DNA of 64,000 nucleotides. Origin: Minutocellus sp. GHC0000111 (lineage: Eukaryota). The position numbers were made by a program, and so were the translations under genes. The stretch covers positions 1,116,001-1,180,000 of the forward strand of contig OZ361259.1 of NCBI GenBank assembly GCA_977018835.1, read 5' to 3'. Within the stretch, counting starts at the first letter, position 1. The number at the start of each line of letters is the position of its first letter. Positions 8,610-45,967 of this stretch are shown one piece after another. The notes below the pieces were generated by a model that searched no databases, was not told where the DNA came from, and saw only the letters and a program-made list of their open reading frames with translations.

Positions 8610-8640
<31 letters not shown>

Positions 8641-18877: not shown

Positions 18878-19293
18878 ATTTTACTACATGTAGGAATTCC
18901 TACTGGTAAATATATGGATTGCTCAATGCATTGCTTGATTGCTCAATGGGAGGGTATCGTATAAGAGTGTCTAGTGTTAGTAGATCTCGGCGATCCGGAT
19001 ACACGTATCGGCAGATGATAGGTCAATTACACGGTGAGTCTACGTAGAAATGTTGCCTGCTCCTCCGTCGAAGGTTCGCACCCATTCATGCGAACCCTTG
19101 GTCTTGACACGCTCAAAAGTCGCATGTTCCTCGACGAAGAATCCAGGCTTCCACTTTGAGCCCCATCACTGCTCTCACTCTTTATTCGCGCTCTGTCTCC
19201 TGATTCTCTCACCAGTACATATTTTTATCTTACTGCCTCGATCCCAATTCCTTGCCTCTGGCTCCTTATCACACATCAGATATTCCCACCAAG

Positions 19294-19617
19294 ATGAACC
19301 TTTCTAACATACTCCTCTTTCTTGCTCTCTACTTGCGAGTATCGGCATTTTCGCCAAGCCTGAAGAAGACACGATCTACTCATCTGAGTTACAATATCGT
19401 CATGCCCCCCGAAGATGACACCGAGAACGAGGAGTCTGTCTTTGAGCGCAAAAGAAAGGAGAAGGCCGACGAGGATGCCCACTTTCGCGAGAGATGCGAC
19501 GCCGAGGGAATAAACCTGAGCGAAATCGATCGGGCAGTGACTCCCGATATGCATAACAACCCCATGGGCAGCCTTATGCCTGGCGTCCATCTCACTGCGT
19601 TGTGTGGAGACGATTAG
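19294..19617 (+). CDS. Small plastid-targeted hypothetical protein
   Basis: Signal peptide followed by VSAFSP (ASAFAP-type). Confidence 0.7.
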   Translation: MNLSNILLFLALYLRVSAFSPSLKKTRSTHLSYNIVMPPEDDTENEESVFERKRKEKADEDAHFRERCDAEGINLSEIDRAVTPDMHNNPMGSLMPGVHLTALCGDD

Positions 19618-19799
19618 ACGTTGTCATTTTAAAGGTTTGTCAACGACACAAGCAGGCTACTTTCCCCAGTAGGAGAAGGGGATCGATGGCTGCAAATTCC
19701 GTAGCTTTATATATTTCGAGAGCGTTTTGCTTTGTAAATTAGATATGCATGCAGATACATGTGCATTGTTGGTTATTCTTTTGAGTTACATGGTGTGAG

Positions 19800-20825
19800 T
19801 TATAGCAAGACCGCCAAAAAGACGACGCAAAGAGCAGCATAGCCTCGGGACGAGCCACCACTTTCGTCGCGACGTTCAAGGATATCGGATCCATTCGTTT
19901 CAAGCACATCATTTCCTTCTACTGTTGCGATGGCAAAACTTTCCATACCTGCCGAGACACCATGCACAGCCTGTGTAAAACCAGTGTCGCATGGGTTGGT
20001 AGCATCATGTGGGGTCTCTCCCGCCATACAAAACTTGCCGGTATCGTCGTAGTAAAGCGTAACCGGGCCCTCAGGGTTTGCCGAAGAAGCATTCTCAACT
20101 TCGTTGGCGTTAACTCCGTTACCTACGATGTGAGCCACAGACCCATCTTCTTGACCATACTGCAATATAACGCCATGGGTCGAAGCGAGGGTACTATCGA
20201 TTGCATTTGCCTCGTCGTTCGATGTCAGAGAGGACGATCCAAACAATTCTGTTTTACTTTCGCTGGGACTATCCACACCAATGCCATTTTCGAGACCAGC
20301 CTCGTCGCGATTGGCACCAATATCTTCGGCAATCATTGACTCCTCTCCATCAACATGCAACATATCAACGCCCTCCTTGACCACATTGTCTCCATTGATG
20401 GTGAGATCGACCGCACCAGACACTTCGCTGATGATGTCATTTGCCGAAGCATTTATCTTATGCTTGCGCTTCTTGACGCCGGGCGCAGATCCTTCTCTGC
20501 ACTTAGTCACTTTAGGTTTCTCTCGAATGCCATTTAGAGGTTTGGTTGATCCCTTCAATCCAGGTACAGGCACGTGCCTATCTGCTGGTTCATCACCCAA
20601 CCCATCTCTGGGTTGTGTCCGAGGAAGTGGTGGAGAAGGAGTGCAGGTTGGTGCAAAGAATTCGGCCTCGGGATTTTCGTCTCGCAGAGGAAATATATGA
20701 ACCAATGAGCGCATACGAGAAGCTCGCGTTCCTTTCTTATGGGATTGGGCTTCAGCGACGCGCAAGCTAATCGGTCCAAGAATAAGGAAAAAGACAAGCA
20801 AGTTGTCACGCTTGACCAGGACCAT
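19800..20825 (-). CDS. Secreted, possibly GPI-anchored hypothetical protein
   Basis: Signal peptide, acidic low-complexity body, C-terminal SS...YAALCVVFLAVLL. Confidence 0.65.
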   Translation of the reverse strand: MVLVKRDNLLVFFLILGPISLRVAEAQSHKKGTRASRMRSLVHIFPLRDENPEAEFFAPTCTPSPPLPRTQPRDGLGDEPADRHVPVPGLKGSTKPLNGIREKPKVTKCREGSAPGVKKRKHKINASANDIISEVSGAVDLTINGDNVVKEGVDMLHVDGEESMIAEDIGANRDEAGLENGIGVDSPSESKTELFGSSSLTSNDEANAIDSTLASTHGVILQYGQEDGSVAHIVGNGVNANEVENASSANPEGPVTLYYDDTGKFCMAGETPHDATNPCDTGFTQAVHGVSAGMESFAIATVEGNDVLETNGSDILERRDESGGSSRGYAALCVVFLAVLL

Positions 20826-21378
20826 CGTGGTGGAAGCTTTGTTCAAATGTATGGTTATTCTTTGATTTTTGCACACCAGCTCCGCAGCGACTGAACGTGG
20901 TCACAAGAAAATATTGTATCGTAACAGTGCAACAGCAAACATTCATTTGAATTCTCTCTCAAAGCACAAAGTAGGAGGCAACTTTTGATGAGTGACAATG
21001 TCTCCACTCAATCAGTCTAAAATGGAGCACAAGAAGGTAGATCTGCCTCTGGAAAACAAATAACATCTACTCCTGTTGATACACCAGCGAAGCGGAGCTG
21101 CTGTCACAGGCACTGCCTCGCCATCGTCCCACTATGGCATCATCAATATCATCAATATCGCAGTCAACAATCGATGCTCAGATGAAGAGCTACGCCGCAC
21201 GCGTTGCTACGTACGTAGGCCTACAGTCACAAGATAAAAAATTGTGAAGCTCTGGCCGTCGTACGAAAGATACGTCAATTATTCGTCAAATCAGTCAATT
21301 CTTATCGCTCGCTCGTGCCGATGCCGTGCCGGCCAAGCAAGTTCATTAGTAGGACGCCACCCCCAAATTAACTTTCAC

Positions 21379-21582
21379 ATGTCTCGCAGTCGACAGGAAC
21401 ATCCCATAAACTGGGGCCGCAAGTTCCAGGGCGCGGCGGCTGGCTTCGCATGCGGTTCCGTGATTGGCATGTTCGCCAGCACATTACACTCGGGCAGAAT
21501 TCGACCAACGCCGCAATCGCTCTCGGCCGCTTTATTTATGGGGACCGTACTTGGAATAGGCGGGGCGATCAAAACAAACTGA
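21379..21582 (+). CDS. Small Gly-zipper membrane protein, Romo1/Mgr2-like
   Basis: 67 aa; GAAAGFACGSVIG and FMGTVLGIGGAIK. Confidence 0.55.
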   Translation: MSRSRQEHPINWGRKFQGAAAGFACGSVIGMFASTLHSGRIRPTPQSLSAALFMGTVLGIGGAIKTN

Positions 21583-21752
21583 TAGAATTCTGCGTAGCAA
21601 TGGCGGATGTGACGTACGCAACAACTATTCGTTTCTGATCGCCTTCAAGACGCACGCACGCACGCACGGGCCGGGCTATTCGATAGACTTATTTCACCAT
21701 GATCATTTATCAAAATATCATAAATTCAGCGAAATCATTTTGCTCAGTATTG

Positions 21753-22826
21753 TTATCTACCCAACAATGACGTTTCGCTGAACCATTTTCGCACCGTATA
21801 CACTTGTACGCCCGTCACTACGCAAAAGATGACAGTCTGCAACAAACTGCTCAATACCATCCTGGAATGCGAATGCTCGTTGACGGCGGCATGGACCGTA
21901 TTCCGATGCTGCTCCTTTTGTTGGTACTCCTTAATTTCTCCCAATAAACGGTTCAATCGCTTCAACTGATCATGCGTCGTCTTCAAATCCTCATCCTGCA
22001 ATCCCTCTGGTGTCAGGTCCTCCATGTCTTTTTCCTCCTCCAACATATGCCGACGCTGGTACGTGTAGACATGTCCCGTGCGCTTATCGATCCCACCCAA
22101 GTCCGATGCTTTGCGCAGTTCCATTTCCACCGTAATGGGATACCACGAACTCTTGACACACAGGCGATACCACCCCGGGGCAACAATCGGTCCAAACGTC
22201 CTCTCCACGGCATCGCCCTCACTGGCCCGCTGGTGCTTGTCAACCTTCTTCTGCCGCTTGGCATCAATGGCCGCCCGGCGGTTGTTGATCTTTTGCTTCC
22301 GCTTCTCCGACCGTTCGACCGCCACGGGATGGTCATCGTCCAACACGTAGTCGTCGTCGTACTCATCGTCGTCGTCGGCCCGATCGAACGCGGCGTCGTC
22401 ATCGTCCACGGCATCGTCGTCCCAATTGGCATCGGTCTCAAAGTCAATGGCCATGTACTCCAGAATGTTGTCGCCCTGTCCCGCCGGGCCGGTGCCGAAG
22501 CGTCGTCCCTGGCCGTACCGGCCAATGCTGGCCTTGAGGTCGTGGGCGGTATCGCTGCCCGGTGGTGCGACGGCCCCCTCGAAGATGCCAGTCGCCTTGA
22601 GCTCGGCACCGGACGTGATGAAGACGGAAGCCGTGACGGATTCGTCCTTTTCGAGATACTCGTGCAGGCATTCCGAACCTCGTTGCGGGATCTTGTATTG
22701 GAGGGGAATGTGGGCCGATACCAGCAGCAGGGCGGGTTGGGCAAGCACGAGCAAGAACAGTGCGGATATGCAGGAGCGGCATGGTGCCGAGTGGCTCGCT
22801 CGCAGACGTCGTTCTGGGTCGGACAT
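21753..22826 (-). CDS. p24/emp24 (GOLD-domain) cargo receptor, copy A with a replaced N-terminus
   Basis: Signal peptide, ECLHEY, G.YRLC, coiled coil, TM helix, QVYTVRKWF. The first 8 codons come from the junction filler. Confidence 0.8.
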   Translation of the reverse strand: MSDPERRLRASHSAPCRSCISALFLLVLAQPALLLVSAHIPLQYKIPQRGSECLHEYLEKDESVTASVFITSGAELKATGIFEGAVAPPGSDTAHDLKASIGRYGQGRRFGTGPAGQGDNILEYMAIDFETDANWDDDAVDDDDAAFDRADDDDEYDDDYVLDDDHPVAVERSEKRKQKINNRRAAIDAKRQKKVDKHQRASEGDAVERTFGPIVAPGWYRLCVKSSWYPITVEMELRKASDLGGIDKRTGHVYTYQRRHMLEEEKDMEDLTPEGLQDEDLKTTHDQLKRLNRLLGEIKEYQQKEQHRNTVHAAVNEHSHSRMVLSSLLQTVIFCVVTGVQVYTVRKWFSETSLLGR

Positions 22827-30589: not shown

Positions 30590-31857
30590 TTACTCATACT
30601 TGAAGGATTCCTCCTCACCGGCAATGTATCGGTTGGCAACAATGTTGCACAGCTCGGCCATGCGCTTGGAATATCCAGCCTCATTGTCATACCAGGCATA
30701 GATCTTCACCAGCGTACCGTCAATGACCTGCGTACTGAGCGCATCGATGATGGAACTGCGGGTGTCGTTGGTGTAGTCCGTCGACACGAGGGGCTTCTCC
30801 TCGTAGCCCAGAATGCCCTTGAGCGGACCGGACTCACTGGCCGCCTTGAGGGCGGCATTGACCTCCTCCTTGGTGGTGGGCTTCTCGACCTCAAAGACGC
30901 AGTCGGTCAGACTGGCGTTGAGGAGGGGGACACGGATGGCCAAGCCGTTGAGCTTGCCCTTGAGCTCGGGATAGATCTCGACGATGGCAGTGGCAGAGCC
31001 GGTGGAGGTCGGGCAGAGGTTGATCATGCCGGAACGAGCACGACGGAGGTCGGACTTTTTGGTGTTGGGCATGTCGACCAGCTGTGTGAAGAAGCGGAGG
31101 AACATGAATTGATGCGGTGCAATTGCATGATATGCAGAAAAAGAACACACATGATGTGCCGGAAATGAAGTGAGATTGTGACGATGAAAGATACGACCAA
31201 AATCATATCGGATGCGCCTTGTATATGCCACAAGAAAGCAGTGCGCTAAAGTAAACATCGCGCATATATACAAATAAGTTCAGCTAAACTCACTGTCTGC
31301 GTACCGGTAACGTCATGGACGGTGGTAATGCACCCGTGCTTGATGCCAAAGTTCTCCTTGACGACCTTGACGACGGGAGCGAGGCAGTTGGTGGTGCAAC
31401 TGGCATTGGTCACGAGCTTCTGCTCCTCCTTGAGCAGACCGTGGTTGCACCCCAGCACGACGTTGAGGGCCTCGGGTTCCTTGACGGGGGCCGAAACGAC
31501 GACTCGCTTCACGCCGCATTCGGTGAAGTACGGCTCGAGGGTCTTGACCTTGAGGAACTTGCCGGTGCATTCCATCACCATGTCGACGCCCATGGCGGCC
31601 CAGTCGACCTTGGTGAAGTCCTTCTCCTGGGAGAAGGTGACGGTCTTGTCATCGACGGTGAAGGAGTTGTCGTCGACCTGGTCGACCTTGTGATTCCACG
31701 TGCCATGAACAGAGTCGTACTGGACGAAATACGAGGCCGACTCGCAGGAGCAGAGGTCGTTGACGTGGACGATTTCCAGGGAGGGGTCGTCCCATGCGTA
31801 ACGGAACACGAGACGGCCGATGCGGCCGAAGCCATTGACTGCACACTTGATGGGCAT
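30590..31857 (-). CDS. gapdh: ArsJ-associated (Gap3-type) glyceraldehyde-3-phosphate dehydrogenase, 351 aa (intron 31082-31293)
   Basis: [77 protein letters not shown]. The phase-0 GTGAGT...CAG intron restores the frame. No targeting peptide. Confidence 0.93.
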
Positions 31858-32354
31858 GGTTGGAGCAGGAGAGGGAGGCCGAGGGGTGGTAAAGTGAAAG
31901 TAGAAAGTGACGAATGAGGAATGATCGATTTAGCGGCTGCGGCGAATCTCGGCACTCGGGACGAATCTCCAAATTTACAGATTATACATTTGTAACAAGA
32001 CCTTGTAGTTTTATTAAAATACCGATCTTTCAACCAAAAATAGGGTATGTTACCTGATATTGATTGTAATTCATCCCGTCCACGAGTTCGGCTGAAGCCG
32101 GCACCAGGCGCATCTGGATGGCAGCCGCAGCTCAGCAGCAGTCAGTTGGACACAAGTCACATTGAGTTGACTATTGTTCGAGACGCACGCTGATTTGCAA
32201 TCACCTCTCAGCAACTTCAATCAGTGCGTGTCTTTTCTCTGGCACATCAGTCGCCTATCAAGGCAGCACATATTCTCTACTGATTTTTGATCACGAACGA
32301 TCATACAAAGGCAGTCCGGCAAAAAAGGAGGAGTCAAGCGAGTAAGCAACAAGC
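31858..32354. promoter_or_regulatory. Putative bidirectional promoter between gapdh and arsJ
   Basis: 497 bp between divergent ATGs, with an AT-rich core. Function is inferred. Confidence 0.55.
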
Positions 32355-34275
32355 ATGACCAAGGCATCGTATGAAAAGTTTGAAGACGGTGGCGACAATG
32401 AAGACAAATTCGCGGACGAGGTCGTTGCCGCTAATATTGAGGATCAGCAGCAGCAAGATGAAGAGTCTCCCGAACAAGCGGCAGCTCCTCAATTCGAACC
32501 AGCCGCCGAGCAGGCTGTGACCGCTTCGTCGACCACAAAGAAGAAGGGGGGAGACACCAACACGGGCAACATATCCTTCAAGGATTTGACGTCGGACCAT
32601 CTCCGTCCGTTCGCCATCATCTCCACGTCGTATCTGCTTTTTACGGTGACCGACGGTGCCATCCGCATGATTGTCCTGCTGCATGCGTACAATCTCAACT
32701 TTTCCGCGTTGGAGGTGGCCATCATGTTTACCTTGTATGAGCTGGCGGGTGCCGTGACCAACCTGTTGGCGGGTGTCATGGGTGCCAAGTGGGGTATCAA
32801 GCTGACTCTTATTACCGGTCTGACACTGCAGCTGGCCGCCTACGGCATGCTGTTTGGCTGGAATCCAGACTGGTCCAAAAGCCAGGCCACGCTGTTTGTT
32901 ACCTTTGTCCAAATGTTGGCGGGCATTGCAAAGGATCTTACCAAATTGGGTGGCAAGACGGTAACCAAGCTGGTGACACCGGAAGAACAAAACACCCGAC
33001 TGTTCAAGCTCGTCAGTCTCATTACCGGTTGGAAGAACAGCCTCAAGGGCGTAGGATACTTCCTGGGCAGTGCACTCATCGGCGTATCGTACGAGTTAGC
33101 CTTGGGGTTCATGATGGGTCTCATCGTTTTGGCCATGCCGTGGGCAATTCTCGGGTTGGACAACAAGCTGGGTACGGCCAAGAAGAAGAATTCGACGCTG
33201 AAGGAAATCTTCGTCATGGACAATCAGCAGCTCAATGTGCTGAGTTTGGCACGGCTGTTTCTGTTCGCGTCGCGTGATTTTTGGTTCGAGGTACCGTTGC
33301 CGTTCTATCTGCGAAGTCCAGGATGCGAAGGCCTGGGCACCGACCCCTGTATGGAGAACTCGGATTGTACTCGAGGTGCCGTCTGTGGTATGGAGAGTGG
33401 AGTCTGCGAGAACTTCAATGGCGGCGGCGGTTGTGGCGGACTAGGTGTTCAGAGTGTTGTAGGTGAGTATTGCACGTGGCGAATGAATACCAAGCACAAC
33501 TATCCCCCTAGATACTGTTTATTTTCTTCTCGGCATTCGTCTCATAAGCTCGTTATATTTTTCATCTCTTACATCAGTCGGTGCCTTCCTCGGAGGCTAC
33601 ATCATCCTCTACGGTCAGGTGCAGAGCTGGACTCCACAGCTGGTCACTGGACCACTGGGCCAAACACCGCCGAACAAGCTCACGGAGGTTCTTTGGGGGA
33701 TCATCAACTGCATCCCAACTCTTGTAATGGGATTGGTGATGTCATTTTCGCCCGTATTCTTGGAACACAACGTCAGTGGAATGATCGGGTGGCTAATCTC
33801 GTCCATCGTTGCGTTTGCCATCGTTTTCGCCATCAATTCCAGCATCCATTCCTATCTCGTTGTGAAGTATGCCAAATCTGACAAAGTGGCGGTCAGTGTT
33901 GGCTTTTACTATATGAGTAACGCCCTTGGCCGATTGATGGGTACCATTGGATCTGGTCTGATCTTTACTTATGTTGGCGAATATTTTGGCGAATTCGTCG
34001 GTCATGATGGTACTGCGGGATTGGCTGCGTGCTACTTGGCTGGAACCCTTTCGAGTGCAGCGGCTGCATTCATAACCACCTTCATTGATGACGATGAGGG
34101 TGGCTTGAAATGTGGAAATATGACTTGTGTTCATGCTGAGATAGAAGATAACGAAGATGCTGAGAACGAATCAAGCGGCGATGGCAAAGCAAACGGAACG
34201 GAGGAGACCGAGGTGAAAAAGATGTCGCAAGCGCAGGAGTCTACCCTAAGTGCCTCTGCCGTATCATCAGCATGA
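32355..34275 (+). CDS. arsJ: ArsJ-family organoarsenical efflux MFS transporter, 601 aa (intron 33463-33577)
   Basis: Y..FTVTDGAIRMIVLLH, LYELAGAVTNL, QMLAGIAKDLTK, TGWKNSLKGVGYFLG, ARLFLFASRDFWFEVPLP, FAINSSIHSYL, GFYYMSNALGRL.GT. These are motifs recalled from bacterial ArsJ. Confidence 0.9.
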
Positions 34276-34329
34276 CACGCGTAGTAACCGTAAATTATAG
34301 TTGTTCATTGTTCAATATTTTCTACGCTG

Positions 34330-36106
34330 CTACGCTGCAATAGATGATCTTGCCCTTCGGCGAACATGGCGTTTCTTGAGAGGAATGTGCAAATCTCCGG
34401 GAACTCGGCCGTGGCAAAATGGAGCCTGACTCTTCATACAGACGCGGTGTTTGGCCCGAGCAAAGGCCCGTGCTGATCGGCCGGTTGTGCTGATGGCATG
34501 CCGAAGAGGCTTGGGGATGGACCCATTGTTCGCAAGCAATATAGTTTGTATGTCGAGATACCGGTTGAGAGAGTAGGGGTTACGCTGCTGCAATGCCATG
34601 GTTTTCTTTTGTGGGAGGATCGACTGCGATGAAAAGTAGATCATTTGCTCATACTCGAACTCATCCTCTTTCCATGGCTCGTCCAGCAAAGCTAAGGCAA
34701 TCGCCTCGATGTAATTGCCAAGAATATCGAGATTATAACCTCCTTCCAGAGCCACAACGATGGGGGTGTTTCGGCCAGCGGCGTCCGACAGAGAATTTGT
34801 AATAGCATAATACGCGTCCGGCGTCAATTTGCAGTCTCCAAGCAAATCGCCCTCGGCTGCATCAAGACCTGCTGACACGAGTATCAAGTCGGGCTGGAAG
34901 GCTCTTATAGCTGGCCCGACCACCTGCGTCATGGCCACTGCATACTCCGAGTTGCCCATGCCGCTCTGTTCCCACACGATATTTTGATTGGTTCCCATCG
35001 CATCTCCCTTGCCAACATCGTTCACGGATCCTGTACCGGGATAGAACCAGGAGAACCGCTCAGCATCGTCGGGGTGGGCCGAGTTACTTGCCCGGTGTAT
35101 TGAAAGATAGAAATGTTTGGGTCGTCGTAGGTCAACTCCTGCGTTCCGTTCCCGTGATGGATATCTAAATCAAATATAAACACCCGCGAGGCTCTTTTGG
35201 TTGCAATTGCATGCTTTGCGGCGATTGCTACATTGCCAAAGTAGCAGAATCCTATGTATTGGCATAGAATTGGTGGTGAGAGGATGGATGTGAATTAGGG
35301 TTCTCATTGGTGACATTTCACATTTTTGGCATTCGTGCGGATCGACTCGACTTACCCATAGGCTTGTCGCGCAAGGCGTGATGACCTGGTGGACGGACCA
35401 AGGCAAGCGATCTCGTTACCTGAGAGTTTGACTCAGCACAGGCATTTACACACTCGACGACACCCCCAGCAGCCAATGATGCGGCCTCGAACGTATGTGA
35501 GTCATAACATAGATCACTGGGATCGGTCAGCTTCACATGCTCATCGTTGGTCACAAGAGCCGCACTTCGGATGAAACTGCAGTGGTCTGGACTGTGCGCG
35601 AGGAGGATCGTGTCGCGCGACGCAGGACGAAAGGGGAGCGATGTGAGTCATCTAGTTGTGGGCGAAGTGGAATGGCGCGAAAGATGTTCGGCGAGACTCG
35701 TTTGCGACATCCAAGGATGCTGACGCTGCAGGAGCGTCCACTCCATCTCCTGCAGGCGTTCCAACAGAGCTGTCAATCTAGGCGCGGTTTCGACATGTTG
35801 TTCTGCATCGTCGGCGTCGTCTGTGTCGTTGATTTTTGGCTGTTCGGGAGGCGCATGGAGGCTCATTCGAGCATCGGTGCAGAGGAAGATGGAAGTCATG
35901 GCGGACATTTGGGTTAGCGTTCTCTTTGTGAATGATTGTGTTGTTTGGATTGTGAGAGCGACAGGGAGGCAATCGTCGATGCCGTCCTTTTTGGCCTTGC
36001 CACATGCCAGGCCAGGGGCGGCGCAGGAGCGTTTTCGAACCAGCCTCATCTTGTGCTGCTCTGCTGCTTGGAGTTCCTCTGTGATGACTTGACTTGTTCG
36101 ACTCAC
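34330..36106 (-). pseudogene. Histone deacetylase, disrupted (copy B)
   Basis: Same stop and frameshift as copy A. Keeps IFDLDIHHGNGTQ where copy A reads IFGLD (SNP 35170/1795). Confidence 0.85.
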
Positions 36107-36119
36107 CGAATCTCAGAGC

Positions 36120-36809
36120 ATGGGAAACACAGAGCCAAGCGAGCACGACGACCTGGACGACTTCTTCGCCTCTGACTCATTAGAGCGCTCATCGACAGTA
36201 AAAGCCGTGACCAAATCACACAAAACAAAAACAGCAGTTTCCACCAACGACCGCACGGCTGAACTGGCCAAGCTTCCCACGAAGCGACCGAGACGATCCA
36301 ACTCCCCCTCGCAGGGCGTTCGGTCGGTTGGTTGTTGTTTTCTCCAACGTCGAAACGCGAGAGTGCGAGCGCATCGTCGGCGATCACGACGATCTGCTCG
36401 GCCCACCCCTCGCCATCGGTTGGTCCCACAATGTGCACGACGCGGTCGATCTGGACAAGCACGAGGAGGACCGGGCCAACACGCGCAAGCCCGAATGCGA
36501 GCTCATCCTCACCCCCCCAACGGCCGACGACATTTGTTGATGAATGAATTTGGCATCAGTGCCGATCACATCACCCAGGCCGAGCGCATGCTGGCCGAAC
36601 AACGACGCACGAACGAGCTGGCGGCAAGTGCCTCCGAGGCCTCCGAGAGGAAGAAGAAGGAGCGCAGCGGGAGCGCGTCCTCTCTCTCTCTCAAGAGAGC
36701 CCGACGAAAGATTGGCAAGCGATTAAGCTTGGACCGGGCCGCCGACATCGGTTCCAGCTTGGTTGCCATGTCCAGCCCGTTCAGTTCCGTGCATGCCAGT
36801 GCCAGATAA
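36120..36809 (+). pseudogene. Diatom-type hypothetical protein, frameshifted (copy B)
   Basis: Copy of 2745-3434. Confidence 0.55.
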
Positions 36810-37390
36810 ATGGTGTGATGGTCCATTCAAAAAAGGCCTGCTTTGGGAAGAGTGACTCTCTCTCAGGAAAAAGCACCGGTGCATCATGTGCAGAAAACCA
36901 AAGAGACAATTTAGATTGAACATAATCACTTTATAGCTAGAACATTTGCAATCGATATATTAAGCCGCACAACAACAAAAGGAAAGCCACGCCGCAAAAT
37001 GTGCTTGGATGACGCCGACGGCGAGGTTCGAAAGGGTTCAAAGAAATTAGAAACTCTTAACGCGCAACGTATATTAATACTGACAAAGTGAAAATAATTA
37101 TTTTACATGTAATTACTTGATAACTAATTCATCCGAACTCCGCATCGTTGATGATGTGCTCAACGACGTCCTTTGTTCCCCACCAGCCAGCCAGCCAGCC
37201 AGCCAGCCACCACTCTGTGTGCGACGAAATCAAAAACGGCGTGCCCTGCCCTCTGCTTTGCTCCCGCTCAGTCCCTTTGGCCCTTACCAGATACCAGATA
37301 CAAGGCAATAGGCGGCTGGATTGGACACTCGAAGCAGTTATCATGTCTCTTGTCCATCCCATCAATCCATAGCTGAGCAGATATTGAAAC

Positions 37391-38325
37391 ATGGTGGTCT
37401 ACCGCCACGACAAGCGAGCGGGCAATTTTGGTGACGTTCACAAACACATCGCTCTGCTCTCTGCCCTGTCGGCGACCACTGCAGCAGCATCAAATCGAAA
37501 AGCATTGTACATCGAAACTCATGCCGCATCTGGTTCGTACGAGAGTACGTCAAGCAAGTCCGAGGACACGGGAGTCGGCCGAGTGCTGGCCGCCGTTGAG
37601 TCACATGCTTTTTGTCACAAGACATCCAGGCATATGCGGATGCGATCAAAAGATATCGTAATGGCGGGGCAAAATCAAAGCATCGATATCCAGGTTCGCC
37701 AGTGCTGGCCCTCTCGTGCTTGCGGTCAGGAAGAGATGAAGAAATGTGCGCGGAATATCTGCAAGACGTTGCAAATGAATTGTCACATACTCTCACTACA
37801 TATCAAGAGGAAAATGACACATCGGTAGCGACGACAGTAGAAGTAGGAGATGGATACGCTGCCATGCGAAGGAAGTTGGCCAGCCTGACCAAAAATGACG
37901 AAGATGCAAAGAGCACGGTGCCGTTTATTCTTATCGACCCGCTATATACGGACCTACAAAGTGAGCTGGACGATGTACCAATGGCAACCAGAGATTGTAT
38001 CGCTGCGTCATCGGAGTCCATCATAATGATATGGTATCCAATCAAGAAGGGTCGTGACGACATCCTCTTGTCGTGGAAGGGAGACCTCGCGTCAGCTATC
38101 CGAGGAAAGCCGCATCGTCTCGTGCTTAGTGAAATCTGGACCAGTTCGCGAACAAACCAATCAAATGGATGCAAAGAGGACGCTCTGGTGGGATCAGGGA
38201 TAGCACTAATTCATCGCCATGACGACGTGACTGATAAATTGATGTCTTTGACCAAGGGGCTCAACGATATTCTGTCTTCTGATGATAAGCAAAGAATTGG
38301 GAGCTGGAGTGTGTTGGAATGCTAG
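37391..38325 (+). pseudogene. rlmJ: RlmJ-like methyltransferase, frameshifted (copy B)
   Basis: Copy of 8822-9756 with the same T5 frame break. Confidence 0.78.
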
Positions 38326-38496
38326 CTCGAGTATCTACATCTATGCTTTGCTCTACAGAATGATTTGCAATATGCTAGCTCCAGGGCATCATATGCGAAG
38401 TTTTCGGTGCGATGAAGGTGCTATTCAGTACATGATCGATGCGAGGCGATCTCGTTAGGTAATTACTACGTAGTATGTAAAATATAGACTTTTTCA

Positions 38497-39135
38497 TTAG
38501 AAAATGTAGACCGAACCGTCCGCTGTTTTGCAGCTAAGGTTGTCTTCTAGGCATGTTCCACAGCATGGCCAGTAGTAATCGAAGTCAAAGTCTTCCGGGA
38601 CGGTGCATGTTGGGTCAACTGGAATCGACTGGCAAGTTTTTGGTCCGCATATGTCGCACGTTGCCACGTTGCCGTCGGCATCCGTCCGGCCTTCGCAGTC
38701 ACGGTCGCTCTGGCATCCAGAGTCGAAGAGATCACCGATCGGCTCGCCACATCGGCTTGTGACGCACTGAGGAGGTAGTGCTGCGTCGCCTGTTGGTTCA
38801 CCCAGGTCCTCATCCGGTGGGACACAGACTCCTGCCATGCACGTGAGGCCTGGAACATACGAAGAGTCGCAGGAAATGATTGTTTTACCCCTGAATTTTG
38901 TCTCACAGCACGCGCTACCGACGGCAGCACAGGTGCTTCCAGCAGACGCAGTTCCGTCATTTCCACCGCCGCCGTTTGGGTTGCCGCCGCCGTTGCCACC
39001 GCCGTTGCCTCCCCTGGCGAGGGCCCTGGCAATGGAGCGAAGATGATGACGGATTGCCGGCTCGTCCGAATGAGCAGCAGCAATGCCGGTAACCGACAAG
39101 CCTGAAAGCATGAGGGCTGCTTTCGAAAGATTCAT
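38497..39135 (-). CDS. Secreted Gly/Cys-rich protein (copy B)
   Basis: Same protein as 9928-10566. Confidence 0.75.
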   Translation of the reverse strand: MNLSKAALMLSGLSVTGIAAAHSDEPAIRHHLRSIARALARGGNGGGNGGGNPNGGGGNDGTASAGSTCAAVGSACCETKFRGKTIISCDSSYVPGLTCMAGVCVPPDEDLGEPTGDAALPPQCVTSRCGEPIGDLFDSGCQSDRDCEGRTDADGNVATCDICGPKTCQSIPVDPTCTVPEDFDFDYYWPCCGTCLEDNLSCKTADGSVYIF

Positions 39136-39298
39136 CTGGTTGAAAGTGAATGAAACACAGTAGCGTTGCTTTTTGGGACTTGCTATGAATGGGTGAGAGC
39201 TCTCGTCCCGCTTTATGCTTTGGTAATGGAATTATTACGAGTATCCGCCAATTCGTTGTGCTTTGACTGCCAACCTTTAGCTTTCTGCCAACCCATTT

Positions 39299-40989
39299 TA
39301 TTCACGGGTCAACAAAGTAGGGTTTGAGGAGACAAGCGATGATTTCAAAAAGAAAGATGCCTTTGCCTGGTCCCGAATCTGCCGAACTCGGGATCAAATC
39401 CCAGACCGCGACCCATACGTACGCAAATTGCCCTCCCAATCGACCATTATGCCCCTTGCAATGGCACCAAACACCGTATCTCCCTGCAATCTCACACATA
39501 ATCAGCCTTCTATGGTCCCAAGGTAACGTGGTGTCACCCCGATAAACACCAACTTGCAAAGATGGGCACATGCGCTCACAAAAACCGTCGCGGTGGGCGG
39601 GAGAAATGGTGAAGTCGGAAATGTCGTCAAAAATGAGGTATTTGGCTAATATCTCGTGAGATACACCTTCGTGCCCCGGAAAAGTCGTGCTCATTCGATC
39701 GGCATAGTTCATGGGTAGACTGTTGTCGAGGAACCAACACTTGATTGGCAAGGTGTGTCGCGAATTCGCATGCTTGACTGCCGAAATTGGGCCCAAATCC
39801 GACATTTGCCGCAAAAAGAGGTATTTGGCGTTTATCTCGTGAGATACAGCTTCATGCCCCGGAAAAGTGATGATCGTTCGATCCACATAGTGTGTGGGTG
39901 AACCGCTGTCAAGAAACCAACACTCAACTTGCAACCAGTGTCAAGAACTCGCATGTTCCATCCATCCCTGACAATCGTCAAATTGCCCGCCAAAACAGTT
40001 TTTGGTGTCTATTTCTTCAGATAAACCTTCCAGCCCCCAGTTCAACCATATCATTCGTTATATTTGGCCTATGGGTGGAGTTTGATGTGATGGTTTGAAC
40101 GGAATTCGTTGTGAGTGGTCGAGAACTCAATCACGACAAGCCCAAAATATCGTCGGAAAACGAAAAATACGGTATCTGTGGTATATTTCATGTTTTAGGC
40201 CTCGACACCAGGATATTATCCTATCATTCGTCGGTGTGGGTCCATAGGTGGAGGTTCGTGCAGTAGTTTGAAGGGATTTATTGGCTGTGTCGACAATGAG
40301 CGTGCTACACGTCCCCAGGAATGAGCTGGGTGGGGGCTTCGGGGCCAGTTTGGGGCGTAATTCTTGCCAAATAGGCCTCGAGACCAGGATTGCACCATTC
40401 AAATCTTTTGTGTTGGTATAGGAGTTGGTGTTGATGCGGTAGTTTGCTGGCAGTTGGCCAGTGGGATGGAGGATTGTCGAGTAAGATGCCCAAAAATGGC
40501 TCGAAACGAGATTTTGGGGGTTGTCGGAGAGGTGGAGGGGGCGATATCTGGACAATCAAGCGAAAAGACCAGCACAAATTGGCTTCATTTGATTGATATG
40601 GTCCCATGCCAGTATATCGAGCCTTAGGCGAAGGTTTGGTTGGAGGCCTGGCCACTAACTGTGTCCAGAGCAGCACGTGAGGGTAGGTGACAGCGGATTT
40701 TGGGCATTCTAAGAGGAGTGATTGGGTTCAATTCTCGGCCTTATGGGCAAGATTTACTGTGCACTTTCCTTCCGTTACATACGGATATACCGAAAGGGTG
40801 ACGTGAGCGCTTGGGCAGAGGTTTGGGCTATGGACTTGTGCTCAACGCTGAGTATTTCTGCTTGTTAGGGTCAGCGCGGCGTGGCAGGAGGGCCAACCTT
40901 GCCAAGGGAGAGTGGTGATAGATTGGCATGCCGACGCAACCAAGAGTGTTCTATTAGCTTTAGTTGCACTATATATGCATGTAAGATGT
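39299..40989. mobile_element. Putative non-autonomous element (copy B)
   Basis: Copy of 10730-12420. Confidence 0.35.
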
Positions 40990-41787
40990 TAGTTTTTCAT
41001 AAATGATCTTAACCTGTTTACTCTATGAAACTCAGTAGTCGTAATCATCTGTAGTAGTTGCAACGGGGCTATCAGGGCCCGGCCCGACCTTGCTCTCTGA
41101 CATTGGTAACGTCTGCCAATCAAGCAATTCTACTGCAGCTACTACCGATAGAATCCCACTAGATTTATATGCGGATGGGGCGCTACGCGAATAAACAATA
41201 TTGAGGTCGTGATTATTTGTTGCGCTACAAGCCCTGACTCTTCGTCGAGGTCGATGACCATCGAGATTTACGATAACATCGTCGAATTTTCACATCGATT
41301 TGCCTCCATTACTTCTACACCAGTACAAAGAACCCTTTGTGATCATTTTGATCGCTCAGGTATATCAAGAGACGCCGATTGATACGCTTCCAATGCAGTA
41401 GTTATGATTCATCCCAACTTTTCCATGTAATGTTAGACTCAGCGCCCCGCGAATTCTGACGTCAACCTCCTCGAAACATTCACATTAGAATCACAAGCCT
41501 CAGCAGCAAGCGCATGAAACTTTCCATCAAAGAGCCACCTCATATCATGTGTAGGTGGAGATAACCTACTGGTGAGGTGATTCGACTTACATGGGCACAC
41601 ACAAACTATCGTCACGTTGGTGAGTTTGACCTCCCAGAAAGACAAAATTCATGCTCCAAAAATTACAACATGAAATAGTTTGGCCGAACTATTGGATTTG
41701 AGAATCACTATATACAGTTGAGTAAAGCTATAAATATTTTCTAGTTCACAGAGGCCGATTTTCGCCTAATGATTTGAATTTATGCTA

Positions 41788-44100
41788 TCATGTCTGGTTT
41801 TCAACAAGAATCGATTCAGGATTCCGCCTTAGAAGCTCAAAGATTGCGCTCACGTACGCCTCGCCTCTCTCTTCAAAGTCATCTCTGTCCTTTCCAGCTT
41901 CTTGGCAAAGTAGATACACCGGAAACATGCCAGCTTTATTTCGTGTCCGGAGCGCCAGGGGGTATGCACTGACTAGAGATGGGATACACTGCAAATTGCC
42001 GCTGATGCACGCCTTGTGCAAAGGTAGATCGCCATCATTATCGACCTGCTTGGGTAAGAAATCAAAGTCAACGGCGTGCTCATATTGATACCCAATGTCC
42101 CCTATCAGGAGTTCCGTGAAGGCATGTTCTCGATGATACTGACAACCAAGATGGAATGGAAGGCGTGCGCTGTTGTCTTTCATAATCATCAGCGCTTGGC
42201 CTTGGAGCAAGAGCATTTCGATGATTTCAGGACGAGCACCATTCTGGAAAGCGAGATGCAAGGGCGTTTTTCCTTCCTGATCTTTTTCACTCAATGCAGC
42301 GGGATATTTGTTCATCAAGTCTTTGATAAATTCCACATCAAGATCGTGTGACACAGCGAGATGGAGTGGCAAGCGACCGTGATTGTCTTTTGTTTCAATG
42401 ATGGAGCGTTCTTTGTCCCCAAAACTCGAATCGTCATAAATGTAGTTGCACTCTCGACGGAAATGATCAAGCTGAATGACTTCTGTCGAAAGGCTTTCTT
42501 CCCGGTCAATTTTATCATCAACAAGGAGAGCATGTAGAAGAAAATTGCCATGATTTTCAACGTATGACTCATATCGTTTCTCCAGCAAGTACTGGAATGC
42601 ATCTTTATTATCACTCCTGGTTGAACAGTGCAAGGGCAGCCCGAGGACGCTGTGGCGATGATCAATCGATCCCGGGTATAGCTCTGTCAGATGCTTCAAA
42701 AGGTTTGTACTGCATCCAGCCTTACAAGCGCAATGTATCGGCAGCCCAAACTCGCTCGATACATGCCGAATGGCGTTAAGTTGGTTTAACTTTGAAAGCG
42801 TTTCTTTGGCTTCGTCGCAAGAGTACTCGCGCGACCAATCGTGTTGGCAAAAAATATGCATAACGTTTCGTTCTTCCGCATCCAGGCGACTTATTGAGTA
42901 CGGCAGTTGTTCAGCCAAGAAAAGAAGGGCATTGTGCCCTCTGTGCTTGAATTCAGAGTTTGCAACTAAGATTTGGATTGGATATCTCCCGTCTCTAGCT
43001 GCCGTATGGATTGCAGTAGGAAAGCATTTTATCAATAACTCGAATAAATCGACCAAATATGTTGGAAAATCAGATGTGCAGGCAGAGTGAAGCGGCAGAA
43101 AGCCATCAATGTTTGCCATTCCAATCGCGGTAGGGTAGGTCTGCATAAGAAAGATCAAAACATCTCCACTTTGGTCGCCTGCTCCTGCATGATGAAGGGG
43201 CAGTGCCTGGTTTGCATCTCTCTGATGAATTAGAAATGGGTAGAGGTCGTGCATCTTCTTGATTATTTCAAGAGGACCTGTCCTGCACGCACAGTGAAAC
43301 GGTGTCATCACTCTTTCGCCCCCAGCATATTTTGCGACGGCTGGGTCTCTCTCAAAAAGAAAGTTGGCGATAGTGTGATCCCTTGAGGATTCAATTGCAA
43401 CATCCAATGGAGTCAGCCCTTCATTATTCCGCACATTTGTGCTCTCAGGGTGCTTTTCTACCAGATACATCACTGTTTCCAGCATGCAGTCATTTGGTGA
43501 ACAATGGCGACATGCCATGTGGATAGGCAATTCCTGGAAAATACAAGAAGCAACTTGTAGCATCCCTGTGTTGCACTCAACCAACATCTCAATCCAGTCT
43601 TTCGGCGACTTCTTAAATCTATCCAAAATAAAATGTATGGGAAGCTTCCCATCTGAAGCTGGCTCCATCGCCAAGGTGCGATCGTTTTCTAAGACCAACC
43701 TCAGCAAGTCTAGAGAAGTCCCCTCGGTCCAAGTTGCACAAATGACATGAATGGGGAGCAAACCCTCCTGTGGGGTTCGTAAGGCCAACAAGGAAGGGTT
43801 TACCTTGAGAAGTATCTCCACCAATGTAACAGAAACTTGATTTCTCTTACAAATGTGATGCAAAATAGGATTCGTTGGACAACGCCCAGGTCTTTGGACC
43901 TCAAGTGCCGTTGGTGATGTTCTAACCATCTCTTGAAAGAGTTTAATGGCATCGGGATCATCGCCCCATTCTAGAACATTTTGGCAAAAACTGCTGATCT
44001 CAGGGGTCATAAATAGAATGAAATGCCGCGCTTTGCTGTTAGACACCGGCTCCTCGCAGTCATGACTATCACCTCGTGTTGCTGCTTGCGCTCGCTGCAT
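41788..44100 (-). CDS. Ankyrin-repeat protein (copy B)
   Basis: Same protein as 13219-15531. Confidence 0.9.
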   Translation of the reverse strand: MQRAQAATRGDSHDCEEPVSNSKARHFILFMTPEISSFCQNVLEWGDDPDAIKLFQEMVRTSPTALEVQRPGRCPTNPILHHICKRNQVSVTLVEILLKVNPSLLALRTPQEGLLPIHVICATWTEGTSLDLLRLVLENDRTLAMEPASDGKLPIHFILDRFKKSPKDWIEMLVECNTGMLQVASCIFQELPIHMACRHCSPNDCMLETVMYLVEKHPESTNVRNNEGLTPLDVAIESSRDHTIANFLFERDPAVAKYAGGERVMTPFHCACRTGPLEIIKKMHDLYPFLIHQRDANQALPLHHAGAGDQSGDVLIFLMQTYPTAIGMANIDGFLPLHSACTSDFPTYLVDLFELLIKCFPTAIHTAARDGRYPIQILVANSEFKHRGHNALLFLAEQLPYSISRLDAEERNVMHIFCQHDWSREYSCDEAKETLSKLNQLNAIRHVSSEFGLPIHCACKAGCSTNLLKHLTELYPGSIDHRHSVLGLPLHCSTRSDNKDAFQYLLEKRYESYVENHGNFLLHALLVDDKIDREESLSTEVIQLDHFRRECNYIYDDSSFGDKERSIIETKDNHGRLPLHLAVSHDLDVEFIKDLMNKYPAALSEKDQEGKTPLHLAFQNGARPEIIEMLLLQGQALMIMKDNSARLPFHLGCQYHREHAFTELLIGDIGYQYEHAVDFDFLPKQVDNDGDLPLHKACISGNLQCIPSLVSAYPLALRTRNKAGMFPVYLLCQEAGKDRDDFEERGEAYVSAIFELLRRNPESILVENQT

Positions 44101-44256
44101 GATGCTGATGCGATGATGATGGGCGAATTTCAGGGGACAGACAGACAGACCATTTTTTCTGAGCCGTCCGTCTCGCTAAGCAACTTGCTCTATTCTCAAC
44201 TGCCACTCAATCGTCGCTGGTGTGTGTTCTTGCTGAAGAAGAGCACCAAAGAAGTC

Positions 44257-45540
44257 ATGAGGGTATTTGCCTTATCCTCATTGGTATGCGCTGGCATCGC
44301 TTCTTTGCCAGAAGATGCCCAGGCGTTCGTTTCCAGCACATTGCCAGCAGCCATCGTAAGTAGCGGACGCAGCCTTCGTGACCATGCAGATGTAGGAAGC
44401 TCGATAGGCGTATGCAACAATGTGCAGAGAGATAGAATATATGGCGCCAAACATTTAAAGCGCAGTTTAGTGCTGTATGCCGCCAAACGAGGTGGGGCCA
44501 TGGCACGGAAGAAGAGCAAGGAACAGGGCGGCAAAACCGGCACAAGCTCGGACAGTAGCGGAGGAGGCTTCGGCGGCACCAGCAGCAAGCCCACGGACGC
44601 ATCCATGAGCGGACTTCAGGGCAGCCGATCTCAACAGGGTGAAGGCGGACGAGAAATCTACTCCCTTCCAGCATTGTACGATTTGGCCTTTGGTTATCGC
44701 AACTACGAGGAGGAGGTGGACTTCTTGTTGAACGCCCATCGGAAGTATTCGGGACAGGAAAGCACGAATGGGCCAAGCGACATTTTGGAATTGGCGGTAG
44801 GTCCTGCGCGTCATTCCATAAGTTGTTTGAGAGAGAATGGAGGAAAGATCAAATCAGTAACTGCCGTAGATTTGTCCTCTGATATGGTTCAATATGGCAA
44901 GGAGAATGCTGATCAGGAGCTCGGCGATGCCGGAACCGGTGGACTTCGAGATGCCTTCAGCTATTTGCAGGAGGACATGAGATCCTACTGTCTTGGCGAC
45001 GGAAAAGAGTCTCGAAGGGAGTCTTTGGACTCTGCATGGATATTGCTAGGATCGATGCAGCACTTAGTGACCAACGATGATGTCATCGATTGTTTCCAAT
45101 CTACTGCCAACGCCCTTCGTCCAGGAGGGACGCTGATCATCGAGCTTCCTCATCCGAGAGAAACCTTTACCATGGTAGAGTGCACTCGCAATGGATGGGA
45201 GGTGCCCCTGGAAGATGACGAGGGGACCGAGTATGGCGAGCTCAAGGTGATTTGGGGCGACGACGATGATCCGTTCGACCCCATCCGTCAGGTGCGCGAC
45301 TTTACCGTGGCGTTGGAGCTGACTGGAGTTGATGAGAATGATACCAGCGGTGAAATGAAGAAGTTGCAGAGCGTGAAAGAGGTGGTTCCCATGCGATTGT
45401 TCACTGCTCAGGAAATGGATGCCCTGGCGAGATGCGCTGGACTTCGTGTGGTGGCCATGTATGGCGCCCTTAGCGAGGAGGTTGCCGTTGACAGTGACAA
45501 CGAGGCATTCAGATTGGTGTGCATCATGAGAAAGGAATAG
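44257..45540 (+). CDS. SAM-dependent methyltransferase (copy B)
   Basis: Copy of 15688-16971 with a V/M difference (VVPMRLF). Confidence 0.85.
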   Translation: MRVFALSSLVCAGIASLPEDAQAFVSSTLPAAIVSSGRSLRDHADVGSSIGVCNNVQRDRIYGAKHLKRSLVLYAAKRGGAMARKKSKEQGGKTGTSSDSSGGGFGGTSSKPTDASMSGLQGSRSQQGEGGREIYSLPALYDLAFGYRNYEEEVDFLLNAHRKYSGQESTNGPSDILELAVGPARHSISCLRENGGKIKSVTAVDLSSDMVQYGKENADQELGDAGTGGLRDAFSYLQEDMRSYCLGDGKESRRESLDSAWILLGSMQHLVTNDDVIDCFQSTANALRPGGTLIIELPHPRETFTMVECTRNGWEVPLEDDEGTEYGELKVIWGDDDDPFDPIRQVRDFTVALELTGVDENDTSGEMKKLQSVKEVVPMRLFTAQEMDALARCAGLRVVAMYGALSEEVAVDSDNEAFRLVCIMRKE

Positions 45541-45967
45541 ACAATGCGATACTAGGAATTCTATTATGCATCGCAATACGGTACATAAAATGGTGGCTGA
45601 ATAGAAGCTGTTGGTACATGAAGAACCTTGTACCGCTCGACAGGTCAAAAATACTAGTACAAGGTCTTTCTAAATCACGTGGCACAAAAAAGCCGGCTTC
45701 TACGTACGTATGTCCGTACTGCAGTACGACATTCCACCCAGTCAATAAAAAAATGCGCCAACGTGCACCCCCTTTGGCGGCAATGACGGCGCCACAAGAC
45801 ATGACTGCATGCGCCGCCCAATCGCCTGAACATACAACAAAATAAGCAGAACCAGAAGCCAAGCGAGTCAAGAAGTTACTCATTTACTTGGTTCGTTGCC
45901 TTGGCCACCAGACCAGTGAACTGCTTTCTCAAGGAACATCGCCATTCCAATCGAAGTAGGAATCCCT

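What the first reader, a model, noticed from the sequence alone, without database searches (positions are those of the whole stretch)
30590..34275. Intron-containing, head-to-head gapdh-arsJ arsenate-detoxification module in a diatom-like genome
Seen: a divergent pair 497 bp apart, both intact, each with one GT-AG intron. The GAPDH has the ArsJ-associated/Gap3 signature ([32 protein letters not shown]) rather than that of ordinary cytosolic GapC. The MFS protein has ArsJ motifs along its length. Established: in bacterial ars clusters this GAPDH uses arsenate to make 1-arseno-3-phosphoglycerate, which ArsJ exports, giving As(V) resistance without reduction to arsenite. Inference: a two-gene bacterial module was kept linked and domesticated with introns and a bidirectional promoter, which would be useful where phosphate is low and arsenate enters through phosphate transporters. 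I recall ArsJ/GAPDH neighbourhoods being noted in some green algae, so novelty for this lineage needs checking.
Basis: partly seen in the sequence, partly recalled or inferred. Interest (0 to 1): 0.92.

Follow-up and report, generated by a model that had tools for sequence, protein, structure and literature searches.

The report
Diatom arsenate-export pair, phosphate-starvation promoter
A diatom chromosome carries, back to back and both spliced, relatives of the special enzyme and membrane pump that bacteria and green algae use against arsenate, and the DNA between them holds a repeated motif that likely switches them on when phosphate runs short; the detox system itself is already known.

Summary
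Observation confirmed. Two intact genes lie head to head, 497 bp apart: an ArsJ-associated GAPDH (351 aa) and an ArsJ-type MFS transporter (601 aa). RNA contigs skip both introns. The module is published for green algae with mutant evidence (PMC7826186). Diatom arsJ appears in a published tree (PMC9812998), and probably this GAPDH too (PMC1920508). This scan also found the pair before in other diatom genomes. It is not a freshly kept bacterial operon. Bacteria have the genes in tandem (84 of 88 loci), and the eukaryotic copies form one old clade with no identifiable donor. Head-to-head linkage holds in 5 of 20 informative diatom loci (centric-like) and in haptophyte-like and green-alga-like loci. 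It is absent in the raphid pennate and Thalassiosirales loci. Not found in my literature searches: (1) the PtPSR phosphate-starvation element GAATCT is clustered in all six diatom spacers (17 sites versus 0.84 expected) and upstream of unlinked diatom arsJ (13 versus 1.1); (2) diatom and haptophyte ArsJ carry a six-cysteine insert. Best reading: arsenate efflux coupled to phosphate starvation. Function in diatoms is untested, and the exported species is disputed even in bacteria. New member of a known kind.

The parts
31294..31857 (-). gapdh3 (ArsJ-associated GAPDH) exon 1, 188 codons; NAD-binding GxGxxG motif, catalytic Cys154 and His181; no N-terminal extension
31082..31293 (-). gapdh3 intron, 212 nt, GT-AG, phase 0; an intron at or next to the same codon in linked diatom loci L001, L011, L014, L027
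30590..31081 (-). gapdh3 exon 2 with stop codon
31858..32354 (.). 497-bp divergent spacer (47% GC), likely a shared promoter
31943..31950 (+). GAATCT-containing box 1 (PtPSR-type phosphate-starvation element), about 86 bp from the gapdh3 start codon
31962..31969 (+). GAATCT-containing box 2; boxes 1 and 2 are the only pair of such sites within 100 bp of each other among 13 in the window
32355..33462 (+). arsJ exon 1: acidic N-terminal tail of about 80 aa, TM1-TM7 and the six-cysteine insert
33317..33439 (+). six-cysteine insert in the TM7-TM8 loop of ArsJ (approximate limits), confidently folded in a model of a 96%-identical relative
33463..33577 (+). arsJ intron, 115 nt, GT-AG
33578..34275 (+). 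arsJ exon 2: TM8-TM12, acidic tail and stop codon
1..900 (+). second, identical copy of 33376-34275 (3' part of arsJ, 0 differences in 900 nt), part of a large duplicated segment; its 5' part would lie before the window start

Best explanation
This is an intact, spliced diatom copy of the ArsJ-GAPDH3 gene pair, which likely protects the cell from arsenate and is likely switched on by the phosphate-starvation regulator PSR through the GAATCT boxes in the shared spacer. Proposed steps: (1) low phosphate activates PSR, phosphate uptake rises and arsenate enters with it (inferred from known biology); (2) PSR binds the spacer and induces both genes (boxes shown; binding and joint induction inferred); (3) cytosolic GAPDH3 uses arsenate in place of phosphate to form 1-arseno-3-phosphoglycerate (shown for bacterial members, inferred here); (4) ArsJ exports As(V), either as that ester or as free arsenate after its hydrolysis, without reduction to arsenite (inferred). 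The pair was acquired once, long ago, by eukaryotes. The head-to-head layout is a eukaryotic arrangement, kept in some centric diatoms and lost in others.
For: Shown here: both genes intact, spliced and under purifying selection. A 97%-identical full-length relative scores 490 bits on NF033735, cut-off 450. The GAPDH falls with 41 bacterial ArsJ-associated GAPDHs away from 6 canonical ones including E. coli GapA, SH-aLRT 100. The transporter's only strong family is ArsJ, at 34-41% identity to 8 annotated bacterial ArsJ with 87 invariant columns. Both gene trees have one eukaryotic clade with parallel order. Head-to-head linkage recurs in L001, L011, L014, L025, L027 (spacers 255-667 bp), in haptophyte-like L035/L036 (75 bp in L035) and in green-like L055/L057/L059. 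YGAATCTH occurs 17 times in six diatom spacers against a shuffle mean of 0.84 and a maximum of 4 in 1000. CGAATCT is the only 7-mer present in all six, and an independent set of 9 unlinked diatom arsJ loci has 13 sites against 1.1 expected, in 8 of 9 loci. From papers: PtPSR binds GAATCT (stated in PMC13729311, citing the original). The Phaeodactylum orthologue Phatr3_J23598 changes by log2 +2.3 (FDR 1e-44) under P depletion, the same direction as PtPSR (supplement of PMC12168105). Chlamydomonas arsJ and pgk3 mutants are arsenate-sensitive (PMC7826186). Vibrio VarG prefers arsenate to phosphate (PMC9601151). Nodularia gapdh and arsJ rise under P limitation (PMC9846622).
Against: No experiment on any diatom copy was found. 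ArsJ misses the NCBIfam cut-off: 346.5 bits for a 96%-identical relative against 400, and 343-357 for seven other diatom proteins. 15 of 20 informative diatom loci have no GAPDH beside arsJ, and Fragilariopsis, Epithemia and Cylindrotheca fusiformis carry the two genes on different scaffolds, so adjacency is not needed. P induction of the Phaeodactylum orthologue is not specific: glycolytic GAPC2A rises more (+2.9) in a list of thousands of changed genes, and the Phaeodactylum arsJ gene was not identified. In the window alone two boxes are modest evidence (P = 0.015), and they lie nearer gapdh3 than arsJ. The motif was first spotted by eye in the six spacers, and the background for the independent set includes coding DNA. 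The haptophyte-like spacer and the green-like head-to-head loci have no box. No PGK-like third gene is adjacent.
Confidence: 0.72

Rival explanations
1. Same arsenate role, but ArsJ exports free arsenate and works largely on its own. GAPDH3 is only a transient arsenate sink, so the genes are co-regulated rather than channelled.
For: In Vibrio cholerae 1As3PG was not found outside the cell and the arsJ mutant was far more sensitive than the GAPDH mutant (PMC9601151 passages). arsJ stands alone in Cyanidiales (PMC9812998). Linkage is absent in 15 of 20 informative diatom loci while the boxes upstream of arsJ persist.
Against: The VarH-type phosphatase that frees arsenate in Vibrio is described as largely limited to Vibrionaceae, and no phosphatase gene flanks the window pair. 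In green algae the two genes are both present or both absent (PMC7826186). This rival differs from the best explanation only in step 4 and is contained in it.
Confidence: 0.4
2. In diatoms the pair serves phosphate economy rather than arsenic defence: GAPDH3 plus ArsJ move or recycle phosphorylated three-carbon metabolites during phosphate starvation, and arsenate tolerance is incidental.
For: Regulation looks tied to phosphate, not arsenic: GAATCT boxes, and no ars gene among the neighbours scanned. Other GAPDHs are also induced by P depletion. The MFS fold resembles organophosphate carriers such as GlpT and G6PT1 about as much as drug pumps.
Against: Bacterial members sit among ars genes in the 8 annotated plasmid regions read. 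The green-algal orthologue's mutant is arsenate-sensitive. The fold matches are at 9-15% identity and are not specific.
Confidence: 0.15
3. A recent, diatom-specific horizontal transfer of a bacterial gapdh-arsJ operon that was then domesticated.
For: Both genes have close bacterial families and are neighbours in bacteria.
Against: Bacterial order is tandem (84 of 88). Eukaryotic copies form one long-stemmed clade sister to all sampled bacteria. No prokaryotic genome matched the diatom-type ArsJ patterns, and the best bacterial identity was 40% or less. A published tree holds fungi, Capsaspora, cryptophytes, haptophytes, red and green algae and diatoms (PMC9812998 supplement).
Confidence: 0.03
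4. Chance adjacency or an assembly artefact.
For: The window holds a large near-identical duplication that overlaps arsJ.
Against: The same head-to-head pair occurs in five separate diatom metagenome contigs with different spacers and outer neighbours.
Confidence: 0.02

Closest known systems
Green-algal ArsJ-type neighbourhood, ArsJ + GAPDH3 + PGK3/PGK4A (Foflonker and Blaby-Haas, PMC7826186)
   Same: Orthologous ArsJ and GAPDH3 in one eukaryotic clade with green-like loci; nuclear and adjacent. A PGK-containing version was recovered here in L073-L076.
   Different: No adjacent PGK in the window or in the three linked diatom loci whose neighbours were scanned. Diatom ArsJ has a six-cysteine insert that green-like copies lack. 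Diatom spacers carry GAATCT clusters. The main text does not mention diatoms.
Bacterial gapdh-arsJ pair of ars operons (Pseudomonas aeruginosa DK2, Chen et al. 2016, not held and known only through citing papers; Vibrio cholerae var operon, PMC9601151; NCBIfam NF033735 and NF033734)
   Same: Same two families: 53-62% identity for GAPDH and 34-41% for ArsJ.
   Different: Tandem and ArsR-controlled in bacteria, divergent with introns and PSR-type boxes here. ArsJ is about 600 aa rather than about 410, with acidic tails and the cysteine insert, and scores below the curated cut-off.
Diatom 'GapA/B*' GAPDH of bacterial type (Rogers et al. 2007, PMC1920508) and diatom arsJ leaves in Supplementary Fig. 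14 of Cho et al. 2023 (PMC9812998)
   Same: Each gene has been reported separately in diatoms. The figure includes Fragilariopsis OEU18849.1, which is P0016 here. GapA/B* is very probably this GAPDH, inferred from its description; accessions were not compared.
   Different: In the passages read, neither paper links the two genes in diatoms or discusses their regulation.
PtPSR phosphate-starvation regulon of Phaeodactylum (Kumar Sharma et al. 2020; not held, cited through PMC13729311, PMC13187674, PMC12168105)
   Same: The core element GAATCT is enriched in the spacer and upstream of diatom arsJ genes.
   Different: Binding and PSR dependence are not shown for these genes. The original paper's target list could not be read and may already include them.

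Membership tests
ArsJ-associated GAPDH (NF033735, GAPDH3) | Score above the curated cut-off of 450 bits and above canonical GAPDH models | tested here: met
   Exons scored apart, 229 + 241 bits, best family for both; 97%-identical full-length P0245 scores 490 against 385 on TIGR01534. The spliced window protein itself was not scored whole.
ArsJ-associated GAPDH (NF033735, GAPDH3) | Groups with bacterial ars GAPDHs, not with GapC or GapA/B | tested here: met
   SH-aLRT 100 against 6 canonical GAPDHs (quick tree, the careful search did not finish). No eukaryotic GapC was in the set; E. coli GapA stood in for it, a relationship recalled from memory.
ArsJ-associated GAPDH (NF033735, GAPDH3) | Intact catalytic Cys/His and NAD-binding motif | tested here: met
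   Cys154, His181 and GxGxxG present
ArsJ-associated GAPDH (NF033735, GAPDH3) | Prefers arsenate to phosphate and forms 1As3PG | not testable with these tools
   Shown for Vibrio VarG (PMC9601151)
ArsJ (NF033734) | Score above the curated cut-off of 400 bits | tested here: not met
   237 + 116 bits for the exons; 346.5 for P0241; 343-357 for other diatom and haptophyte-like copies. It is filed as a eukaryotic ArsJ orthologue, not as a member of the bacterial equivalog.
ArsJ (NF033734) | Orthology to ArsJ: nearest family, shared motifs, 12-helix MFS fold | tested here: met
   Only strong NCBIfam hit; 87 invariant columns with 8 annotated ArsJ; model of P0241 pLDDT 84, pTM 0.84, all top fold matches MFS. 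The ArsJ trees had no non-ArsJ outgroup.
ArsJ (NF033734) | Exports As(V) or 1As3PG and confers arsenate resistance | not testable with these tools
   Shown for Chlamydomonas (sensitivity only) and Vibrio orthologues
Bacterial gapdh-arsJ operon | Tandem gapdh then arsJ, with ArsR or other ars genes nearby | tested here: not met
   Divergent in the window; neighbours are an amidase and a histone deacetylase; bacteria are tandem in 84 of 88
Green-algal ArsJ-type neighbourhood | ArsJ and GAPDH3 orthologues adjacent in a nuclear genome | tested here: met
Green-algal ArsJ-type neighbourhood | Adjacent non-canonical PGK (present in most, not all, green algae) | tested here: not met
   No PGK beside the pair in the window, L011, L014 or L025; present in L074. 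A PGK elsewhere in the genome could not be sought, as no genome is held.
PSR phosphate-starvation regulon | Clustered GAATCT elements in the promoter | tested here: met
   2 in the window spacer (P = 0.015); 17 vs 0.84 over six spacers; 13 vs 1.1 in an independent set
PSR phosphate-starvation regulon | PSR-dependent induction under P limitation | tested here: inconclusive
   Phaeodactylum GAPDH orthologue up log2 2.3, but so is GAPC2A; arsJ not identified; no psr-mutant data seen

The most novel reading that the evidence does not exclude
Diatoms run a dedicated arsenate-proofreading arm of the phosphate-starvation response: PSR switches on an As(V) efflux module from one two-way promoter. The module reached the ancestors of diatoms and haptophytes as an already linked head-to-head cassette from a green-algal source and gained an outward-facing disulfide cap on ArsJ. 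This would be a main, overlooked route by which bloom-forming phytoplankton tolerate high arsenate-to-phosphate ratios without making arsenite or methylarsenic.
Probability: 0.3. Interest if true: 0.65.

Novelty: new member of a known kind. Interest (0 to 1): 0.42.

Why it matters
Arsenate competes with phosphate in low-phosphate seas, and algal handling of it is usually explained by reduction and methylation (general knowledge). An As(V) export route wired to the phosphate-starvation regulator would add a second path in a major group of primary producers. It can be tested at once in Phaeodactylum, where knockouts and psr mutants exist. It would also reassign a gene annotated as glycolytic (Phatr3_J23598). 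The module itself is published, so the gain is its extension to diatoms and haptophytes, its regulation and the cysteine insert.

Tried and rejected
No whole genome is held, so copy number, PGK3/4, PSR, ArsC, ACR3 and ArsM could not be sought in this organism. Whether the large duplication in the window is real DNA or an assembly haplotype is left open. A scan of prokaryotic genomes with diatom-type ArsJ patterns found 66 pattern matches and no relative, so no close bacterial donor was seen. Viral contigs gave 4 loci at 33-40% identity, not followed up. The cysteine insert has no Pfam match at E up to 1. Foldseek gave only generic MFS matches at 9-15% identity. No solved structure of this GAPDH class turned up among the 60 best listed of 137 matches. 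The careful GAPDH tree did not finish; the quick tree is used. No AU test was run, so a green-algal origin (SH-aLRT 96) is only a hint. The RNA contigs leave 31928-32071 uncovered; this is not used as evidence. A motif scan for PGK was too crude, missing the PGK in L074, and was replaced by Pfam (42 ORFs: 41 of the 82 listed plus one from L035). No complex prediction was run, because no binding is claimed. Literature: 'arsJ + diatom' gave 2 papers, neither on this pair; 'arsJ + GAPDH + algae' gave 5; 'YGAATCTH' gave 0; the last search was too broad, and none of the 30 listed of 5,465 held arsJ. Chen et al. 2016 and Kumar Sharma et al. 2020 are not held. Ribeiro and Lahr 2022, on eukaryotic arsenic genes, was seen only as a reference. 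Any of these, or their supplements, may already mention diatom linkage or PSR control.
Full report
1. Observation. The region holds two divergent genes whose start codons are 497 bp apart. The minus-strand gene has exons 31857-31294 and 31081-30590 around a 212-nt GT-AG intron and gives a 351-aa protein. The plus-strand gene has exons 32355-33462 and 33578-34275 around a 115-nt GT-AG intron and gives 601 aa. RNA contigs from four metatranscriptome runs cover parts of both genes. Two runs from two studies skip the 212 nt, and one skips the 115 nt with no mismatch in a 344-nt contig. These runs include related strains, and contigs cannot show expression level or strand. Comparison with a close relative (L001) gives dN/dS near 0.04 for both genes.

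2. Identity. Both GAPDH exons match NF033735, the ArsJ-associated GAPDH, best. A 97%-identical full-length relative scores 490 bits, above the cut-off of 450. In a tree of 80 rows the protein lies with 41 bacterial ars GAPDHs, apart from 6 canonical GAPDHs (SH-aLRT 100; quick tree; five near-identical rows were dropped first). It has the catalytic Cys and His and no N-terminal extension, so it is likely cytosolic. The transporter matches only ArsJ strongly but stays below the bacterial cut-off (346.5 against 400 for a 96%-identical relative), as do all diatom copies tested. A model of that relative has a 12-helix MFS fold (pLDDT 84, pTM 0.84), and fold matches are generic. All named top hits are diatoms; the window's nearest named relatives include Odontella and Eucampia.

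3. Distribution and layout. Of 80 metagenome loci (the best 80 of 217), 45 are diatom-type: 44 by the tree and one short one by sequence. Twenty of these have a GAPDH hit or at least 1.4 kb upstream; the other 25 are too short to judge. Five of the 20 carry gapdh3 head to head with arsJ (L001, L011, L014, L025, L027), with spacers of 255-667 bp. Four of those five group with a Chaetoceros GAPDH. The other 15, about 8-9 distinct groups, fall with raphid pennates and Thalassiosirales and have no GAPDH within the DNA held. Fragilariopsis, Epithemia and Cylindrotheca fusiformis have the two genes on different scaffolds. L035/L036 group with the haptophyte Calcidiscus (SH-aLRT 99) and are also head to head, 75 bp apart in L035. 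Unnamed green-alga-like loci show head-to-head (L055/57/59), tandem (L063), separated (L056) and PGK-containing (L073-76) layouts. In bacteria 84 of 88 loci have gapdh directly upstream of arsJ on the same strand: 79 were labelled so, and 5 more are so by their printed coordinates. Two had too little flank and 2 had no GAPDH.

4. Origin. Eukaryotic ArsJ and GAPDH3 each form one group, sister to all sampled bacteria (support 100 and 94). No prokaryote matched diatom-type patterns, and best identities were at most 40%. Diatom, bolidophyte and haptophyte ArsJ share a six-cysteine insert between TM7 and TM8 that is absent from the green-like and bacterial sequences inspected. This group nests among green-like sequences with SH-aLRT 96, which is a hint only. 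By standard MFS topology the loop faces outside or a lumen, and the model folds it confidently (pLDDT 93-97), so a disulfide-bonded cap is likely. Its role is unknown.

5. Regulation. While printing the spacers I noticed a repeated word. The pattern YGAATCTH, recalled as the PtPSR site, occurs 2, 2, 2, 2, 6 and 3 times in the six diatom spacers: 17 against a dinucleotide-shuffle mean of 0.84, maximum 4 in 1000. An unbiased count finds CGAATCT as the only 7-mer in all six. In an independent set of 9 unlinked diatom arsJ loci, 700 bp upstream of TM1 hold 13 sites against 1.1 expected from the rest of those loci, with 8 of 9 positive. Across the whole window the pattern is not enriched (13 against 16.6). 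PMC13729311 states, citing the original study, that PtPSR binds GAATCT. The Phaeodactylum orthologue (B7GC94, Phatr3_J23598) changes by log2 +2.3 under phosphate depletion, as PtPSR does (+3.0), but GAPC2A changes by +2.9, so this is weak support. The haptophyte-like spacer has no site.

6. Mechanism. Most likely PSR induces the pair when phosphate is scarce, GAPDH3 traps incoming arsenate as 1-arseno-3-phosphoglycerate, and ArsJ removes As(V) (confidence about 0.72). Shown here: gene integrity, splicing, family, linkage and motif enrichment. Inferred: enzyme preference, transport, localisation and PSR binding. Whether ArsJ carries the ester or free arsenate is open; the Vibrio study favours free arsenate (PMC9601151). 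A role in phosphate economy without arsenic (0.15) cannot be excluded. Recent diatom-specific transfer and artefact are rejected.

7. What is known, and what I saw of each paper. PMC7826186: abstract, passages, section 8 and a search of its supplement, which was cut when stored; it describes the green-algal ArsJ-GAPDH3-PGK cluster and arsenate-sensitive mutants, and the main text has no mention of diatoms. PMC9812998: passages and parts of supplement 1 (one file unreadable); its arsJ tree includes four diatom species. PMC1920508: passages; a bacterial-type GAPDH in diatoms, haptophytes and diplonemids. PMC9601151, PMC9846622, PMC13729311, PMC13187674, PMC7283521, PMC8233357, PMC6198282, PMC7578391, PMC13701856, PMC11528361: passages only. 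PMC12168105: passages and rows of supplements. Chen 2016 and Kumar Sharma 2020: not seen. My searches found no paper on diatom linkage, the boxes or the insert, but the library lacks most subscription journals. Earlier notes of this scan report the same pair, motif and insert in other diatom genomes. I read them after my own tests, and they are not independent evidence.

8. Verdict. A real, intact and conserved gene pair, and a new member of a published kind. The worthwhile additions are the likely PSR control, the linkage shared with haptophyte-like loci and the cysteine insert. Interest 0.42.

Noticed in passing
window 1-4828 vs 33376-38199; 7229-22803 vs 35800-51372: Large direct duplication at 99.75-99.87% identity. 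It includes the 3' part of arsJ, so the whole gapdh3-arsJ pair may be present twice. It is a recent segmental duplication or an assembly haplotype.
   Followed up: partly
window 2425-9630: A 2.4-kb unit repeated three times in tandem in one copy of the duplicated segment but apparently once in the other.
   Followed up: no
window 55843-57272: A roughly 495-bp unit repeated about three times inside a long ORF with cysteine-rich repeats.
   Followed up: no
L011:3733-6066, L014:6081-8264, L025:35-2386: In three Chaetoceros-like loci the same Cys/Met-metabolism PLP enzyme gene (PF01053) lies just downstream of gapdh3. This may be plain synteny or a link to thiol supply.
   Followed up: no
L018, L022, L025, L027, L014 vs L028, L040, L043, L044, L048 vs window: arsJ intron positions differ by lineage (about codon 399, codon 315 and codon 370), while the gapdh3 intron near codon 188 is shared by the linked diatom loci.
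   Followed up: partly
L046; proteins P0413 and P0475: Some haptophyte-like ArsJ copies have a shortened or degenerate insert, two of them with only two cysteines.
   Followed up: no
L081:571-1620 and L082:690-1781: Both cyanobacterial gapdh-arsJ loci have a phosphate-binding protein gene next to them, a bacterial parallel to the phosphate link.
   Followed up: no
L169-L172: Four viral-collection contigs carry bacterial-type arsJ or parts of it; they may be prophage flanks.
   Followed up: no
L035:3727-4746: Downstream of gapdh3 in the haptophyte-like locus lies a multi-pass membrane protein that looks by eye like a ZIP-type metal transporter; no Pfam hit at E 1e-4.
   Followed up: partly
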